Program-made: the position numbers and the translations under genes
DNA from: Escherichia coli
Lineage (GTDB): Bacteria > Pseudomonadota > Gammaproteobacteria > Enterobacterales > Enterobacteriaceae
Reading direction: 5' to 3' (one strand)
Assembly: GCF_048403405.1 (NCBI RefSeq)
Contig: NZ_CP183129.1
Length of the DNA: 64,000 nucleotides
Notes under the pieces: model-generated
Told to the model about the DNA's origin: nothing
The model's input: the letters and a program-made list of their open reading frames with translations, nothing else
The model's database searches: none
Part shown: in pieces, positions 32,782-41,285 of the stretch
Layout of the letters: every line of letters begins with the position of its first letter
Numbering within the stretch: the first letter of the stretch is position 1

Positions 32782-32929
32782 AACTTTGCCTCAGGCATTA
32801 GAAATAGCGCGTTATTGTACACGGATTAATCGCACTACAAAACAGGATCACAAACATCCTCCGCAAACAAGTATTGCAGAGTCCCTTTGTGATCGCTTTC
32901 ACGGAGCATAAAAAGGGTTATCCAAAGGT

Positions 32930-33025
32930 CATTGCACCAATATGGTGCTTAATGTTTCCATTGAAGCACTATATTGGTGCAACATTCACATCGTGGTGCA
33001 GCCCTTTTGCACGATGGTGCGCATG
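32930..33025. promoter_or_regulatory. NtrC (NRI) enhancer binding sites upstream of glnA
   Basis: Repeated TGCACCA-N-TGGTGCA-like dyads (tgcaccaatatggtgct, gcactatattggtgca, others). Confidence 0.7.
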
Positions 33026-35797: not shown

Positions 35798-37207
35798 ATG
35801 CAACGAGGGATAGTCTGGGTAGTCGATGACGATAGTTCCATCCGTTGGGTGCTTGAACGTGCGCTCGCTGGAGCGGGTTTAACCTGTACAACATTTGAGA
35901 ACGGCGCGGAGGTACTGGAGGCGCTGGCGAGCAAAACGCCGGATGTGCTGCTTTCAGATATCCGTATGCCGGGAATGGACGGGCTGGCGCTGCTCAAGCA
36001 GATTAAACAGCGCCATCCGATGCTTCCGGTCATCATTATGACCGCACATTCCGATCTGGATGCTGCCGTCAGCGCCTATCAACAAGGGGCATTTGATTAT
36101 CTGCCCAAACCGTTTGATATCGACGAAGCCGTGGCGCTGGTTGAGCGCGCCATCAGTCATTACCAAGAACAGCAGCAGCCGCGTAATGTTCAGCTTAACG
36201 GCCCAACGACCGATATCATCGGCGAAGCGCCAGCCATGCAGGACGTGTTCCGTATTATCGGTCGGCTTTCGCGTTCTTCTATTAGCGTGCTGATTAACGG
36301 CGAATCCGGCACCGGTAAAGAGCTGGTCGCTCATGCCCTGCATCGCCACAGTCCGCGAGCCAAAGCGCCGTTTATCGCGCTGAATATGGCGGCTATCCCG
36401 AAGGATTTGATCGAATCAGAACTGTTTGGTCACGAGAAAGGCGCGTTTACTGGCGCGAACACCATTCGTCAGGGGCGTTTTGAACAGGCCGATGGCGGCA
36501 CGTTATTTCTCGACGAAATTGGTGATATGCCGCTGGATGTGCAGACGCGTTTGCTGCGCGTGCTGGCAGACGGTCAGTTTTATCGCGTTGGCGGCTATGC
36601 GCCGGTGAAAGTGGATGTGCGGATTATCGCTGCCACTCACCAGAATCTTGAACAGCGGGTGCAGGAAGGTAAGTTCCGTGAGGATCTGTTCCACCGCCTG
36701 AACGTCATCCGCGTTCATCTGCCACCACTGCGTGAGCGTCGGGAAGATATTCCCCGCCTGGCACGCCATTTTTTACAGGTTGCCGCGCGCGAACTGGGCG
36801 TAGAAGCGAAGTTACTGCATCCGGAAACCGAAGCCGCGCTGACGCGTCTGGCGTGGCCAGGCAACGTGCGCCAGCTGGAAAACACCTGCCGCTGGCTAAC
36901 GGTAATGGCTGCCGGACAGGAAGTGTTGATTCAGGATTTGCCTGGCGAACTGTTTGAATCAACGGTTGCGGAGAGTACTTCGCAAATGCAACCGGACAGT
37001 TGGGCGACGCTGTTAGCGCAGTGGGCAGACAGGGCGCTGCGTTCCGGTCATCAAAATCTGCTTTCCGAAGCGCAGCCTGAGCTGGAGCGGACGTTACTGA
37101 CCACCGCGCTGCGACATACGCAGGGGCATAAACAGGAAGCGGCGCGGCTACTCGGCTGGGGGCGTAACACTCTGACGCGGAAGTTAAAAGAGCTGGGGAT
37201 GGAGTGA
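35798..37207 (+). CDS. glnG: Nitrogen regulation response regulator NtrC (sigma-54 activator)
   Basis: Start at [12 protein letters not shown]; receiver domain, AAA+ [14 protein letters not shown] motif, C-terminal HTH; 469 aa. Confidence 0.9.
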
Positions 37208-37318
37208 TTCACGGCTTGTGTGTAAAGATTGATTATTGAGCGCAAATTGCTGGTATTTTGCGCTTTACTGTTCCGATAAGTTCAGTATGATCTTGCCCGG
37301 AAAACGGGGAGAGTCATT

Positions 37319-37429
37319 ATGCTGGAATCAATAATTAATCTGGTATCGAGTGGCGCAGTTGACAGCCACACACCGCAAACTGCCGTTGCTGCCGTGCTGT
37401 GTGCCGCGATGATTGGGCTGTTTAGCTGA
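37319..37429 (+). CDS. yshB: Small membrane protein YshB (36 aa)
   Basis: Short ORF MLESIINLVSSGAVDSHTPQTAVAAVLCAAMIGLFS preceded by GGGGAGAG SD; below the ORF-track size cutoff. Confidence 0.6.
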   Translation: MLESIINLVSSGAVDSHTPQTAVAAVLCAAMIGLFS

Positions 37430-37439
37430 GTTTCAGATT

Positions 37440-37560
37440 GCTGATGAAGTGCTCTTTGTTCATGCCGGATGCGGCGTGAACGCCTTATCCGGTCTACAAA
37501 AGCAATATTTTCAACAGGTTTTGTAGGCCTGATAAGCGTAGCGCATCAGGCAATCTTGTT
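37440..37560. repeat. REP element cluster
   Basis: gccggatgcggcgtgaacgccttatccggtctac and related palindromic units. Confidence 0.7.
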
Positions 37561-37618
37561 CTCAGCACATTGATGGCGCTTTCGTTTTCTACTTTGTAAA
37601 CGAAGCGCCATTCACTAT

Positions 37619-38992
37619 TTAAATCACCCGTGAGAACTGCTGCATCCGCGCTTTCTGGCGCAGATAGGTATCAAAGCACATGCAAATGTTGCGGATCAGC
37701 AAGCGACCTTTCGCCGTCACCTGAATCCCCTTCTCATCCACATCCACCAGCCCATCTTTTGCTAACGGGGCGAGCAGCTTGAGATCTTCGGCAAAGTAAT
37801 CAGCGAAGTGCAAATCCCACTGTTGCTCAATGGGAGCGTAATCCAGACGGAAGTTGCAGATGAGCGACTTAATCACATCGCGGCGAATACAGTCATCACG
37901 CGTTAGCGCAATACCACGCCACAGCGCATTGCCTTGTTCATCCACTTGCTGATAGTACTGCTTCAACTCTTTCTGGTTCTGCGCGTAGCAGTCGCCAATC
38001 ATGCTGATGGCGGAAACGCCCATCCCCAGCAGATCGGTATCGCCCTGAGTGGTGTAGCCCTGGAAGTTACGATGCAGCACGCCTTCACGCTGGGCCACCG
38101 CCAGTTCGTCATCAGGACGGGCAAAGTGATCCATACCGATAAACTGATAGCCCGATTGCGTCAGGAAGGCGATGGTTTCCTGCAGGATATCGAGTTTTTG
38201 CTGCGGACTCGGCAAGTCAGCATCTTTGATTTTGCGCTGAGCAGCAAAAATGGTCGGCAGATGCGCATAGTTAAAGACGCTCAGACGATCGGGGTTCAGC
38301 TCCGCCACGCGTTTCAGGGTAAAAGCGAAACTCTCCGGCGTTTGTTTCGGCAGGCCGTAAATCAGGTCGATGTTGGTGGAGGTAAAACCAATCTCACGCG
38401 CATGGTTAAGCAGTGCAAAGATGAACTCTTCATCCTGCTCGCGGTTAACCAGACGTTGCACTTCTTTGTTGAAGTCCTGCACGCCCATGCTCAGGCGATT
38501 AAAGCCCTCGGCGCGTAAATGATCGAGTACATCCAGTTCGATTTCGCGCGGATCGACTTCGATCGAAATCTCCGCATCGGCATTGAACTGGAAGTTTTCG
38601 CGCAGCAGCTTCATCAGACGGCTGATTTGCGCTTTGTTCAGATACGTCGGCGTACCACCGCCCCAGTGCAGCTGGCTCACCTTGCGCCCGGCAAAAAGCG
38701 GTGCACGATGGACGATTTCTTGCTCCAGCGCGTCCAGATACTGATCGGCCTTGTGCTGCTGGCGAGTAACAATCTTATTGCAACCGCAGAAGTAACAAAG
38801 CTTATGGCAGAACGGAATATGTACGTAGAGAGATAATGGACGCTCAGGATAGCGCGCCACGGCTTGTAAAAACGCCTGTTCGCCGAAGTCTTCTGAAAAC
38901 TCCAGCGCGGTCGGGTACGAGGTGTATCGTGGCCCGGAATAGTTATATTTCTGGATCAGGGCCAGATCCCAGTCGATTTGCTGTACAGACAT
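37619..38992 (-). CDS. hemN: Oxygen-independent coproporphyrinogen III oxidase (radical SAM)
   Basis: ORF 37619-38998; CxxxCxxC radical SAM motif (CHKLCYFCGC). Confidence 0.9.
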   Translation of the reverse strand: MSVQQIDWDLALIQKYNYSGPRYTSYPTALEFSEDFGEQAFLQAVARYPERPLSLYVHIPFCHKLCYFCGCNKIVTRQQHKADQYLDALEQEIVHRAPLFAGRKVSQLHWGGGTPTYLNKAQISRLMKLLRENFQFNADAEISIEVDPREIELDVLDHLRAEGFNRLSMGVQDFNKEVQRLVNREQDEEFIFALLNHAREIGFTSTNIDLIYGLPKQTPESFAFTLKRVAELNPDRLSVFNYAHLPTIFAAQRKIKDADLPSPQQKLDILQETIAFLTQSGYQFIGMDHFARPDDELAVAQREGVLHRNFQGYTTQGDTDLLGMGVSAISMIGDCYAQNQKELKQYYQQVDEQGNALWRGIALTRDDCIRRDVIKSLICNFRLDYAPIEQQWDLHFADYFAEDLKLLAPLAKDGLVDVDEKGIQVTAKGRLLIRNICMCFDTYLRQKARMQQFSRVI

Positions 38993-39690: not shown

Positions 39691-39756
39691 AATGGTTCGT
39701 CTTTTAGCCGTTTTATTCAGTATAGATTTGCGGCGGAATCTAACAGAAAGCAAGCA

Positions 39757-40001
39757 AAGAAAAAAGGCGACAGATTACTCTGTCGCCTTTTTTCCTGACT
39801 CATAACCCTTAACGGGTCTTACAATCCTTGCAGGCCGCCAACACACCCTGTTTTTCCATTAGCCGGAACAATCCGTGTTGATTCCATTTCCGTTTAATTA
39901 CGTCTCCGGACGTTTGTCTTCCTGACAATCCTCTGTCTTCGCCTCCTGGCGCTCCTGACCCTCATCCTGAGTCATTGTTCCTGTTAGCGTCCTCGCTCTA
40001 T
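39757..40001 (-). ncRNA. csrC: CsrC small RNA (CsrA-sequestering)
   Basis: Reverse complement reads ATAGAGCGAGGACGCTAACAGGAACAATGACTCAGGATGAGGGTCAGGAGCGCCAGGAGG... with multiple GGA motifs and a terminal hairpin GGCGACAGA...TCTGTCGCC plus T-run; matches CsrC as I recall it. Confidence 0.85.
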
Positions 40002-41029: not shown

Positions 41030-41138
41030 TAAAAAACGCCCCAGTCATTACTGACTGGGGCGGCTAAAATATTCAGCCAAATCCGATTACGTGAAGTAAA
41101 AGGTCTGAAAGATAGAACATCTTACCTCTGTACCCTAC
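41030..41138 (-). ncRNA. spf: Spot 42 small RNA
   Basis: Reverse complement reads GTAGGGTACAGAGGTAAGATGTTCTATCTTTCAGACCTTTTACTTCACGTAATCGGATTTGGCTGAATATTTTAGCCGCCCCAGTCAGTAATGACTGGGGCGTTTTTTA, the Spot 42 sequence with its terminator. Confidence 0.9.
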
Positions 41139-41285
41139 GCGACTAACTTTACTCTTTTTTGTTCAGTTCAGAAAGCACTTTTTGTAATTTTTTTTCAGTT
41201 GTTGCATAGGAATTTCTAATAGCCATCACAAAACGTGACAGCTTATGTTGCTTACTTACGAAAAAAGGGCATGTTCAGGCGAATC

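What the first reader, a model, noticed from the sequence alone, without database searches (positions are those of the whole stretch)
37319..37429. Short ORF for the 36-aa membrane protein YshB in the glnG-hemN spacer
An ATG-initiated 36-codon hydrophobic ORF with a GGGGAGAG ribosome-binding site lies just after glnG; it is below the size cutoff of the ORF track and would be missed by it.
Basis: partly seen in the sequence, partly recalled or inferred. Interest (0 to 1): 0.2.

Follow-up and report, generated by a model that had tools for sequence, protein, structure and literature searches.

The report
Known small membrane protein gene yshB

Summary
The ORF is at window 37319-37429 (+), exactly as described. 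It starts with ATG, has 36 codons and follows a GGGGAGAG Shine-Dalgarno sequence. Its product is identical over 36/36 residues to E. coli K-12 YshB (b4686), with one synonymous DNA difference. It scores 72.1 bits against NCBIfam NF033841 'small_YshB' (cutoff 34). The locus is single-copy in 5425 of 5426 complete E. coli genomes.

An ORF this long is not unusual by chance: 67% of shuffled spacers contain one. The evidence that it is a gene is comparative. I recovered 64 loci from Enterobacteriaceae, Erwinia/Izhakiella and Brenneria/Affinibrenneria. Of these, 63 hold an intact 35-40 codon frame; the other is cut by its contig end. In every locus where the neighbouring genes were on the fetched DNA, the frame lies after glnG and converges on hemN. 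pN/pS is 0.31 even in codons that my search pattern did not constrain. Only this frame stays open in all 49 ungapped 36-codon sequences. A promoter, TTTACT-16 nt-TATGAT, is nearly invariant.

Published work reports detection by top-down mass spectrometry, cleavage of tagged YshB by RseP, an own promoter, and a virulence role for the Salmonella ortholog. The molecular mechanism is still unknown. My inferred best guess is an amphipathic helix plus one transmembrane helix that binds a larger membrane partner.

Verdict: already known, low interest.

The parts
37319..37429 (+). yshB coding sequence, 36 codons plus TGA stop. Product: MLESIINLVSSGAVDSHTPQTAVAAVLCAAMIGLFS
   Evidence: ORF. Identical to K-12 b4686. 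NF033841 at 72.1 bits. Annotated yshB in RefSeq. Intact in 63 of 64 loci from other species, the exception being cut by its contig end. pN/pS 0.19-0.31.
37306..37313 (+). Shine-Dalgarno sequence GGGGAGAG, with the GGAG core 7 nt upstream of the ATG
   Evidence: Read directly from the sequence. A G-rich run (GGGGG, GGAGG or GGGAG) occupies the same position in all 62 aligned upstream regions.
37264..37291 (+). yshB promoter: -35 TTTACT (37264-37269), 16-nt spacer, -10 TATGAT (37286-37291). The inferred transcription start is near 37297-37300.
   Evidence: This is the only sigma-70-like site found on either strand of 36900-37900. That count is itself no more than chance (1 found, shuffle mean 0.9), so the support comes from conservation. 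CTTTAC and GTATGAT are invariant or at least 90% conserved at fixed spacing in 62 distinct sequences from about 15 genera. PMC9731577 states that yshB has its own promoter. The start site was not mapped here.
37225..37263 (+). Conserved block upstream of the -35 box. It contains a possible hairpin, GAGCGCAAA...TTTGCGCTT (37238-37265), that overlaps the -35.
   Evidence: 70-99% column conservation. The centroid fold shows a 9-bp stem, but its energy is no better than shuffles (z +0.48). Variation breaks the pairs without compensating changes, e.g. C-A in 12 of 62 and C-C in 8 of 62. An UP-element or protein-binding site is therefore more likely than a glnALG terminator. Its role is not established.
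35798..37207 (+). glnG (ntrC), the upstream neighbour. The glnG-to-yshB spacing is nearly fixed across species.
   Evidence: Annotation transferred from strain 7/2 and K-12. tblastn shows glnG ending 105-120 nt before the yshB start in 56 of the 60 loci with a glnG match.
37619..38992 (-). hemN, the convergent downstream neighbour
   Evidence: hemN is convergent in all 60 loci where the fetched DNA reached it, at a gap of 33-611 nt.
37464..37551 (.). Pair of inverted REP elements (a BIME) in the yshB 3' region: REP 37464-37497 and inverted REP 37523-37551
   Evidence: The REP core recurs three times in the window at one mismatch or fewer, against 0 expected. Inverted repeat I1. Sub-threshold naRNA4 (REP-derived) Rfam hit. 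The region folds at -57.5 kcal/mol, z -6.0. It makes the full 411-nt spacer query match a median of 39 places per E. coli genome. K-12 carries one more REP here.
37572..37613 (.). Stable hairpin between the REPs and the hemN stop. It is probably the shared 3'-end structure of the convergent yshB and hemN transcripts.
   Evidence: -20.5 kcal/mol with z -5.5 on the + strand, and -20.4 with z -3.8 on the - strand. Identical in K-12. In genera without REPs, a GC-rich hairpin sits directly after the yshB stop. There is no U tract, so terminator function is inferred, not shown.

Best explanation
This is yshB, an independently transcribed small-protein gene of E. coli and its relatives. Its own sigma-70-type promoter (TTTACT-16-TATGAT) would give a short leader carrying a strong Shine-Dalgarno sequence. 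Translation from ATG 37319 then yields a 36-residue protein with no lysine or arginine. The protein is predicted to have an N-terminal amphipathic helix (residues 2-13), a short break, and a C-terminal helix (residues 17-35). The second helix is uniformly hydrophobic after a nearly invariant polar cap, His-Thr-Pro-Gln-Thr, and would serve as a single membrane anchor. My committed mechanism is inferred, not shown. I propose that YshB acts like other enterobacterial proteins under 50 aa with one transmembrane helix (MgrB, MgtS, AcrZ, CydX). It would pack its conserved small-residue face (T18, A22, A25, A29) and its H17/T21/C28 stripe against a larger inner-membrane protein to modulate it. Its level would be set by promoter activity, reported as high in stationary phase, and by RseP intramembrane proteolysis. 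In Salmonella the ortholog, identical at 33 of 36 residues, is reported to promote intracellular replication and virulence. Shown here: identity, conservation, purifying selection, synteny and promoter conservation. Shown in the literature: protein detection, RseP cleavage of tagged forms, own promoter. Inferred: topology, partner binding and physiological role in E. coli.
For: Identity: 36/36 residues match K-12 b4686. NF033841 equivalog at 72.1 bits versus cutoff 34. The exact sequence is in public collections as YSHB_ECOLI. Population: single copy, at least 95% identical, in 5425 of 5426 complete E. coli genomes. Comparative: 63 of 64 loci carry an intact ML(E/D)(S/T)...HTPQTA...C...(S/N) frame of 35-40 codons, and the last is cut by its contig end. 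The start and stop positions, which the search pattern did not constrain, are conserved. Synonymous changes far outnumber nonsynonymous ones: E. albertii 6 versus 0, and S. enterica diarizonae 16.5 of 27.5 synonymous sites versus 2.5 of 77.5 nonsynonymous sites. Pooled pN/pS is 0.31 in the pattern-free codons. Variability by codon position is 0.13/0.05/0.30. The annotated frame is open in 49 of 49 sequences, against at most 14 of 49 for any other frame. Synteny glnG>yshB><hemN holds in every locus where the neighbours were on the fetched DNA. Promoter hexamers are invariant or nearly so. Structure: AlphaFold2 gives helices 2-13 and 17-35 at mean pLDDT 75. Helix 1 has a hydrophobic moment of 0.48, reached by 4 of 5000 shuffles; helix 2 has a moment of 0.06. 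Literature: top-down MS detects YshB (PMC12529367). [quoted passage not shown] Abundance was predicted at more than 11,000 copies per stationary-phase cell (PMC7549839). The Salmonella virulence role of Bomjan et al. 2019 is cited.
Against: No partner protein is known, and none can be inferred from sequence. The fully hydrophobic run (residues 21-35) is only 15 residues, and TMHMM did not call a transmembrane segment. The RseP study had to use TOPCONS, which predicted N-out/C-in. That is opposite to the usual N-in/C-out topology of RseP substrates. C-terminally His-tagged YshB could not be detected after plasmid expression (PMC7549839). All RseP data used N-terminally tagged constructs, not the native protein. 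The model has only moderate confidence (pLDDT 75, pTM 0.36) for a 36-residue peptide. The invariance of residues 17-22, 25, 28 and 29 among my 64 loci was partly imposed by the search pattern. The unbiased HMMER hits keep these residues in P0014 and P0015, but natural variants exist: HAPQT in E. marmotae and H17P in one E. coli cluster. The primary papers (Hemm 2008, Fontaine 2011, Bomjan 2019) were not held, so their content is second-hand.
Confidence: 0.95

Rival explanations
1. The conserved element is mainly a non-coding RNA, either a small regulatory RNA with its own promoter or a 3' product of the glnALG operon, and the ORF is incidental or secondary (a dual-function RNA).
For: The transcript would be short, and its promoter and leader are as conserved as the ORF. 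The corresponding locus downstream of ntrBC in Pseudomonas encodes the sRNA NrsZ (PMC9731577). From my own memory, the Salmonella study found YshB while screening sRNA candidates.
Against: Substitutions show three-base periodicity and a large synonymous excess. pN/pS is 0.19-0.31, and only one frame stays open in all sequences. No Rfam family matches the ORF region. The protein itself has been detected by mass spectrometry. An additional RNA-level role is not excluded by any of this.
Confidence: 0.03
2. It is a chance open reading frame in a spacer, annotated only by propagation of the K-12 call, and makes no functional protein.
For: An ATG ORF of at least 36 codons occurs in 67% of shuffles of this 411-nt spacer. 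There is no Pfam family. A plasmid-expressed His-tagged version was not detectable.
Against: The frame, start and stop are conserved across three families of Enterobacterales under purifying selection. The Shine-Dalgarno sequence and promoter are conserved. Detection by top-down MS is published.
Confidence: 0.01
3. It is a small hydrophobic toxin of a type I toxin-antitoxin pair (Hok, Ibs, Ldr or TisB-like), held in check by an antisense RNA.
For: Its size and hydrophobic C-terminal helix resemble such toxins. It was cleaved by RseP in the same screen as HokB and HokE.
Against: No sigma-70-like promoter was found on the antisense strand in 36900-37900. It is single-copy and universally syntenic rather than patchy or mobile. 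It lacks the basic residues typical of these toxins. It is reported at thousands of copies per cell, which is incompatible with a potent toxin.
Confidence: 0.01

Closest known systems
E. coli K-12 YshB (b4686; UniProt YSHB_ECOLI; NCBIfam NF033841 'YshB family small membrane protein')
   Same: The protein sequence is identical (36/36). The position is the same, between glnG and hemN, on the glnG strand. The promoter and Shine-Dalgarno sequence are also the same.
   Different: There is one synonymous base change at codon 30 (GCG versus GCA). The 3' flank also differs: K-12 has about 49 nt more, including an extra REP, and different sequence directly after the stop.
Salmonella enterica YshB (Bomjan, Zhang and Zhou 2019, J Bacteriol 201:e00314-19)
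   Same: It is an ortholog with 33 of 36 identical residues (V23L, M31L, I32V). The locus and promoter elements are the same, as seen in the subsp. arizonae and diarizonae loci.
   Different: The reported role in intracellular replication in macrophages and in mouse virulence is specific to Salmonella. No phenotype is known for E. coli. That paper was not available to read here; the role is as cited in PMC10470546 and PMC9731577.
Small single-pass regulatory membrane proteins of enterobacteria (MgrB-PhoQ, MgtS-MgtA, AcrZ-AcrB, CydX-CydAB)
   Same: These are also under 50 aa, with one predicted transmembrane helix and their own small gene, and were missed by classical annotation. MgrB and CydX were also RseP-cleavable in the same screen.
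   Different: There is no sequence similarity to them and no known partner for YshB. YshB lacks the flanking basic residues that usually fix topology. It also has an unusually polar, nearly invariant HTPQT cap on its helix. The resemblance is a working analogy, not a membership.

Membership tests
YshB family (NCBIfam NF033841, equivalog) | Full-length match to the family HMM above its curated cutoff | tested here: met
   72.1 bits versus cutoff 34, E 2.4e-20. Residues 1-36 align to profile positions 1-40 of 40.
YshB family (NCBIfam NF033841, equivalog) | Sequence identity to the founding member, E. coli K-12 b4686 | tested here: met
   36 of 36 residues identical, with one synonymous nucleotide difference.
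YshB family (NCBIfam NF033841, equivalog) | Length of 35-40 aa with the conserved core HTPQTA-x2-A-x2-CA and the N-terminal ML(E/D)(S/T) | tested here: met
   The alignment of 30 distinct family proteins has M1, H17-A22, A25, C28 and A29 invariant, and the window protein has all of them. The core's invariance among the pattern-retrieved loci is partly by construction, but the pattern-independent HMMER hits P0014 and P0015 also keep it.
YshB family (NCBIfam NF033841, equivalog) | Genomic position downstream of glnG on the same strand and convergent with hemN | tested here: met
   In the window the order is glnG 35798-37207 (+), yshB 37319-37429 (+), hemN 37619-38992 (-). The same order holds in every comparison locus where the neighbours were on the fetched DNA.
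YshB family (NCBIfam NF033841, equivalog) | The ORF is translated and the protein accumulates | not testable with these tools
   Literature for K-12 only: top-down MS detection (PMC12529367) and an abundance estimate cited in PMC7549839. Purifying selection is indirect support.
YshB family (NCBIfam NF033841, equivalog) | Membrane localisation | not testable with these tools
   The prediction gives a uniformly hydrophobic helix at 17-35. Cleavage of tagged YshB by the intramembrane protease RseP, in vivo and in vitro, implies membrane insertion of those constructs. Topology is not determined: TOPCONS predicts N-out/C-in, while RseP substrates are usually N-in/C-out.
Small regulatory transmembrane proteins (MgrB/MgtS/AcrZ/CydX type; functional class, not a homology family) | Direct binding to, and modulation of, a larger membrane protein | not tested
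   No partner is known. This is an inference from the size, the single helix and the conserved small-residue face.
Type I toxin-antitoxin toxins (Hok/Ldr/Ibs/TisB type) | A cis- or nearby-encoded antisense RNA, and toxicity on expression | tested here: inconclusive
   No promoter-like site was found on the antisense strand, but that scan is crude. The high reported copy number and strict single-copy synteny argue against this. Toxicity cannot be tested here.
Bacterial lipoprotein signal peptide | Lipobox [LVI][ASTVI][GAS]C preceded by a basic n-region | tested here: not met
   The residues before Cys28 are A-V-L, with Leu at position -1. The protein has no Lys or Arg.

The most novel reading that the evidence does not exclude
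The most novel reading not excluded concerns the nearly invariant residues His17, Thr21 and Cys28. They fall on one face of the predicted transmembrane helix (spacing i, i+4, i+11). Together with the gene's fixed position next to hemN throughout Enterobacterales, this could mean YshB is a cofactor-handling subunit (haem, porphyrin or metal) or an accessory subunit of an anaerobic or respiratory membrane complex. On that reading it would not be a generic stress peptide. A second possibility is that the yshB transcript also has an RNA-level regulatory role. Neither idea has direct support here.
Probability: 0.05. Interest if true: 0.5.

Novelty: already known. Interest (0 to 1): 0.08.

Why it matters
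As a scan result it matters little. The gene has been in the K-12 annotation as b4686 for years, attributed in the literature to Hemm et al. 2008. NCBI's pipeline already names it in essentially every E. coli genome. Two points are still useful. First, it confirms that a sequence-only reader can recover genuine genes of about 36 codons that a length-filtered ORF track drops. Second, the comparative data assembled here are a ready starting point for anyone seeking YshB's still-unknown molecular function. These data are the invariant promoter, the fixed glnG-to-yshB spacing, the HTPQT cap, the conserved Ala/Thr face and Cys28, the 4-residue loop insertion in Kosakonia, Siccibacter and Brenneria-type sequences, and the absence of any basic residue. 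The Salmonella ortholog has been linked to virulence.

Tried and rejected
I replaced them with a full HMMER scan of representatives and a degenerate DNA pattern scan of genome contigs.

2. The primary papers were not held under any id: Hemm 2008, Hemm 2010, Fontaine 2011 and Bomjan 2019. Their content is cited only through papers that quote them.

3. Chance test: the bare ORF is not statistically unusual, so I did not use ORF length as evidence.

4. I considered the hairpin at 37238-37265 as the glnALG intrinsic terminator. Its energy is no better than shuffles, and variation breaks pairs without compensation, so this reading is not adopted.

5. A 5'-leader hairpin, CCCG-GAAAA-CGGG, would partly cover the Shine-Dalgarno sequence. 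It is weak (z -0.96) and is not claimed.

6. Pfam gave no family. Rfam gave nothing over the ORF, only a sub-threshold REP-like naRNA4 hit downstream.

7. I rejected the lipoprotein, signal-peptide and leader-peptide readings. There is no lipobox and no basic n-region, and the downstream gene is convergent.

8. In some Citrobacter and Salmonella loci the frame is open further upstream, with an ATG 10-11 codons before the conserved start. That ATG overlaps the conserved -10 box and is absent in most genera, so it is not the start.

9. I did not run fold search. A two-helix, 36-residue model would give meaningless matches.

Full report
**Observation.**
The window holds an ATG-initiated ORF at 37319-37429 on the + strand. 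It has 36 codons plus TGA and translates to MLESIINLVSSGAVDSHTPQTAVAAVLCAAMIGLFS. GGGGAGAG lies at 37306-37313, with its GGAG core 7 nt from the ATG. No in-frame start codon lies further upstream after the preceding stop.

The ORF begins 111 nt after the glnG stop and ends 189 nt before the stop of the convergent hemN. Both neighbours were placed by transferring RefSeq annotation from a strain whose spacer is 100% identical. Window glnG is 35798-37207 (+) and hemN is 37619-38992 (-).

The protein has GRAVY +1.12. Its most hydrophobic stretch is residues 21-35, and it has no Lys or Arg.

**Is it more than chance?**
Not on ORF length alone. 67% of shuffles of the 411-nt spacer contain an ATG ORF of at least 36 codons. 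The case has to rest on comparison.

**Identity.**
- The translation equals K-12 YshB (b4686) at 36 of 36 residues.
- The DNA differs from K-12 within the CDS only by a synonymous GCG/GCA at codon 30.
- The protein scores 72.1 bits against NCBIfam equivalog model NF033841 'small_YshB', whose cutoff is 34. Pfam has no family for it.
- The exact sequence is in public collections under the names YSHB_ECOLI and 'YshB family small membrane protein', on at least 1000 contigs.
- The promoter-plus-ORF segment (178 nt) is present once, at 95% identity or more, in 5425 of 5426 complete E. coli genomes. It is annotated yshB in every sampled record.

**Conservation beyond E. coli.**
A HMMER scan of 1.84 billion representative proteins returned only 15 hits. 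One, P0012 (1691 aa), had no matched stretch. The other 14 are YshB-like, although several are mis-framed or truncated gene calls. This is a narrow family.

A degenerate DNA pattern for HTPQTA-xx-A(V/I/M)xCA returned 64 loci from species-representative genomes. I estimated the chance expectation at about 0.03 matches. The loci come from these groups:
- Escherichia, Salmonella, Citrobacter, Enterobacter and Klebsiella
- Kosakonia, Pluralibacter, Siccibacter, Leclercia, Phytobacter and Trabulsiella
- Erwinia and Izhakiella
- Brenneria and Affinibrenneria

In 63 of the 64 loci the match lies in an intact frame of 35, 36 or 40 codons. Each begins ML(E/D)(S/T) or MFET and ends in S, N or similar. 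The remaining locus is cut by its contig end. The start and stop were not part of the pattern, so their conservation is an independent test.

Synteny is complete wherever the fetched DNA reaches the neighbours:
- glnG ends 105-120 nt upstream in 56 of the 60 loci with a glnG match.
- hemN converges at a variable distance of 33-611 nt.

**Coding signature.**
- In the 49 distinct 36-codon sequences, variability by codon position is 0.13/0.05/0.30 in the codons that the pattern did not constrain.
- Pooled pN/pS is 0.31 in those codons and 0.19 overall.
- E. albertii differs from the window by 6 synonymous and 0 nonsynonymous changes.
- S. enterica subsp. diarizonae differs at 16.5 of 27.5 synonymous sites but only 2.5 of 77.5 nonsynonymous sites.
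- The annotated frame is open in 49 of 49 sequences. No other frame on either strand is open in more than 14 of 49.

This excludes a chance ORF. It also argues strongly against a purely non-coding element.

**Expression signals.**
The only sigma-70-like site on either strand of 36900-37900 is TTTACT (37264-37269), a 16-nt spacer, then TATGAT (37286-37291). That count is itself no more than chance (1 found, shuffle mean 0.9).

In an alignment of 62 distinct upstream regions, CTTTAC and GTATGAT are invariant or at least 90% conserved at constant spacing. A G-rich Shine-Dalgarno sequence is kept in place. [quoted passage not shown]

A further conserved block (37225-37263) lies upstream of the -35 box. 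Its potential hairpin does not fold better than shuffles and shows no compensatory changes. I therefore read it as a possible UP-element or factor-binding site rather than the glnALG terminator. This is unproven.

**3' region.**
Two inverted REP elements lie downstream at 37464-37497 and 37523-37551. A stable hairpin follows at 37572-37613. K-12 has one more REP and different sequence immediately after the stop. Genera without REPs have a GC-rich hairpin directly after the yshB stop. This suggests a shared 3' structure for the convergent yshB and hemN transcripts.

**What the protein looks like.**
With a 30-sequence alignment, AlphaFold2 gives two helices, residues 2-13 and 17-35, at mean pLDDT 75. 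Helix 1 is amphipathic, with a hydrophobic moment of 0.48 that only 4 of 5000 shuffles reach. Helix 2 is uniformly hydrophobic (moment 0.06) after the polar HTPQT cap.

The invariant or nearly invariant residues lie on restricted faces of helix 2. This follows from simple helical geometry and is my inference.
- H17, T21 and C28 form one stripe.
- T18, A22, A25 and A29 form a small-residue stripe suited to helix-helix packing.

Fourteen of the comparison loci, mainly Kosakonia, Siccibacter, Brenneria and Affinibrenneria, carry a 4-residue insertion in the inter-helix loop.

**What is published.**
- Tagged YshB is cleaved by the intramembrane protease RseP in all four assays, including with chromosomal RseP and with purified enzyme (PMC10470546). 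That paper's Table S1 lists the same sequence, with a TOPCONS-predicted transmembrane segment at D15-F35 and N-out/C-in topology.
- Top-down proteomics detects YshB, which has no tryptic sites (PMC12529367).
- It was predicted to reach more than 11,000 copies per stationary-phase cell, yet a plasmid-borne His-tagged form was not detectable (PMC7549839).
- The Salmonella ortholog, identical at 33 of 36 residues, is cited as promoting intracellular replication and virulence (Bomjan et al. 2019). I could not read that paper or the discovery papers.

**Mechanism.**
Identity, translation and membrane association are well supported. How YshB acts is unknown.

I commit to the following as most likely, at perhaps 40-50%. 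YshB is a single-pass small membrane protein with an interfacial amphipathic helix. It binds and modulates a larger inner-membrane protein through its conserved helix face. Its abundance is set by its own promoter and by RseP-dependent turnover. This makes it analogous to MgrB, MgtS, AcrZ and CydX, but not homologous to them.

The rivals are each at 3% or below:
- a purely RNA function
- a chance ORF
- a type I toxin

A lipoprotein or signal-peptide reading fails the lipobox test.

**Verdict.**
The gene is already known and routinely annotated. Novelty is nil and interest is low.

Noticed in passing
window 37430-37560, compared with L002 (K-12) 3420-3650: The yshB 3' flank is polymorphic within E. 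coli. The window has two inverted REP elements, while K-12 has about 49 nt more (a third REP) and unrelated sequence in the first ~20 nt after the stop codon. In the first E. coli search, 5249 of 5426 genomes had one place covering at least 80% of the 411-nt spacer, so other arrangements exist.
   Followed up: partly
window 37425-37441 and 37550-37566: A 17-nt inverted repeat (76% complementary) brackets the REP pair. The whole 37425-37560 segment folds into one long structure (-57.5 kcal/mol, z -6). It looks as if the REPs sit inside an older stem that starts at the yshB stop codon. Other genera have a simple GC-rich hairpin at that spot.
   Followed up: partly
window 37572-37613: A stable imperfect hairpin, ATGGCGCTTTCGTTT...AAACGAAGCGCCAT, lies just beyond the hemN stop. 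Its z-score is -5.5 on the + strand and -3.8 on the - strand, it has no U tract on either side, and it is identical in K-12. It is possibly a non-canonical bidirectional 3'-end structure.
   Followed up: partly
window 37225-37263: The block upstream of the yshB -35 box is 70-99% conserved across about 15 genera, as well conserved as the coding sequence. Its potential hairpin lacks covariation. This could be a regulator-binding site or an UP element, and no regulator of yshB is known to me.
   Followed up: partly
window 39748-40001 (- strand); L001 5602-5768: The CsrC sRNA (Rfam RF00084, 277.9 bits) lies between yihI and yihA. The RefSeq record of strain 7/2 annotates a 'frameshifted, internal stop' hypothetical-protein pseudogene inside it (window 39809-39975). 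This is probably an annotation artefact over a non-coding RNA.
   Followed up: partly
window 41030-41148 (-) and 32863-32970 (-): The Spot 42 sRNA (122.8 bits) and the Rfam family ES222 sRNA (133 bits) are both present above gathering score. ES222 lies upstream of the glnA region, and its relation to neighbouring genes was not examined.
   Followed up: no
E. coli genome collection: Two of the 5425 matches to the yshB segment lie on records labelled as plasmids, and one complete genome has no match at all. Neither was inspected. Mis-labelled replicons or a deletion are the obvious possibilities.
   Followed up: no
Loci L004, L008, L011, L026, L032, L034, L040, L041, L050, L051, L057, L058, L063, L064: These 14 loci, mainly Kosakonia, Siccibacter, Brenneria and Affinibrenneria (also Leclercia sp. 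UBA7405, two Enterobacter sp. records and one MAG), carry a 40-residue YshB. It has a 4-residue insertion (for example EAGA) in the loop between the two predicted helices. The Erwinia sp. OLFS4 and Izhakiella proteins are the most divergent (MFETIFHLLSQASQHTHTPQTAFVAILCAAMFSFFS) but keep HTPQTA and Cys. Natural variants HAPQT (E. marmotae) and H17P (a small E. coli cluster) exist.
   Followed up: partly
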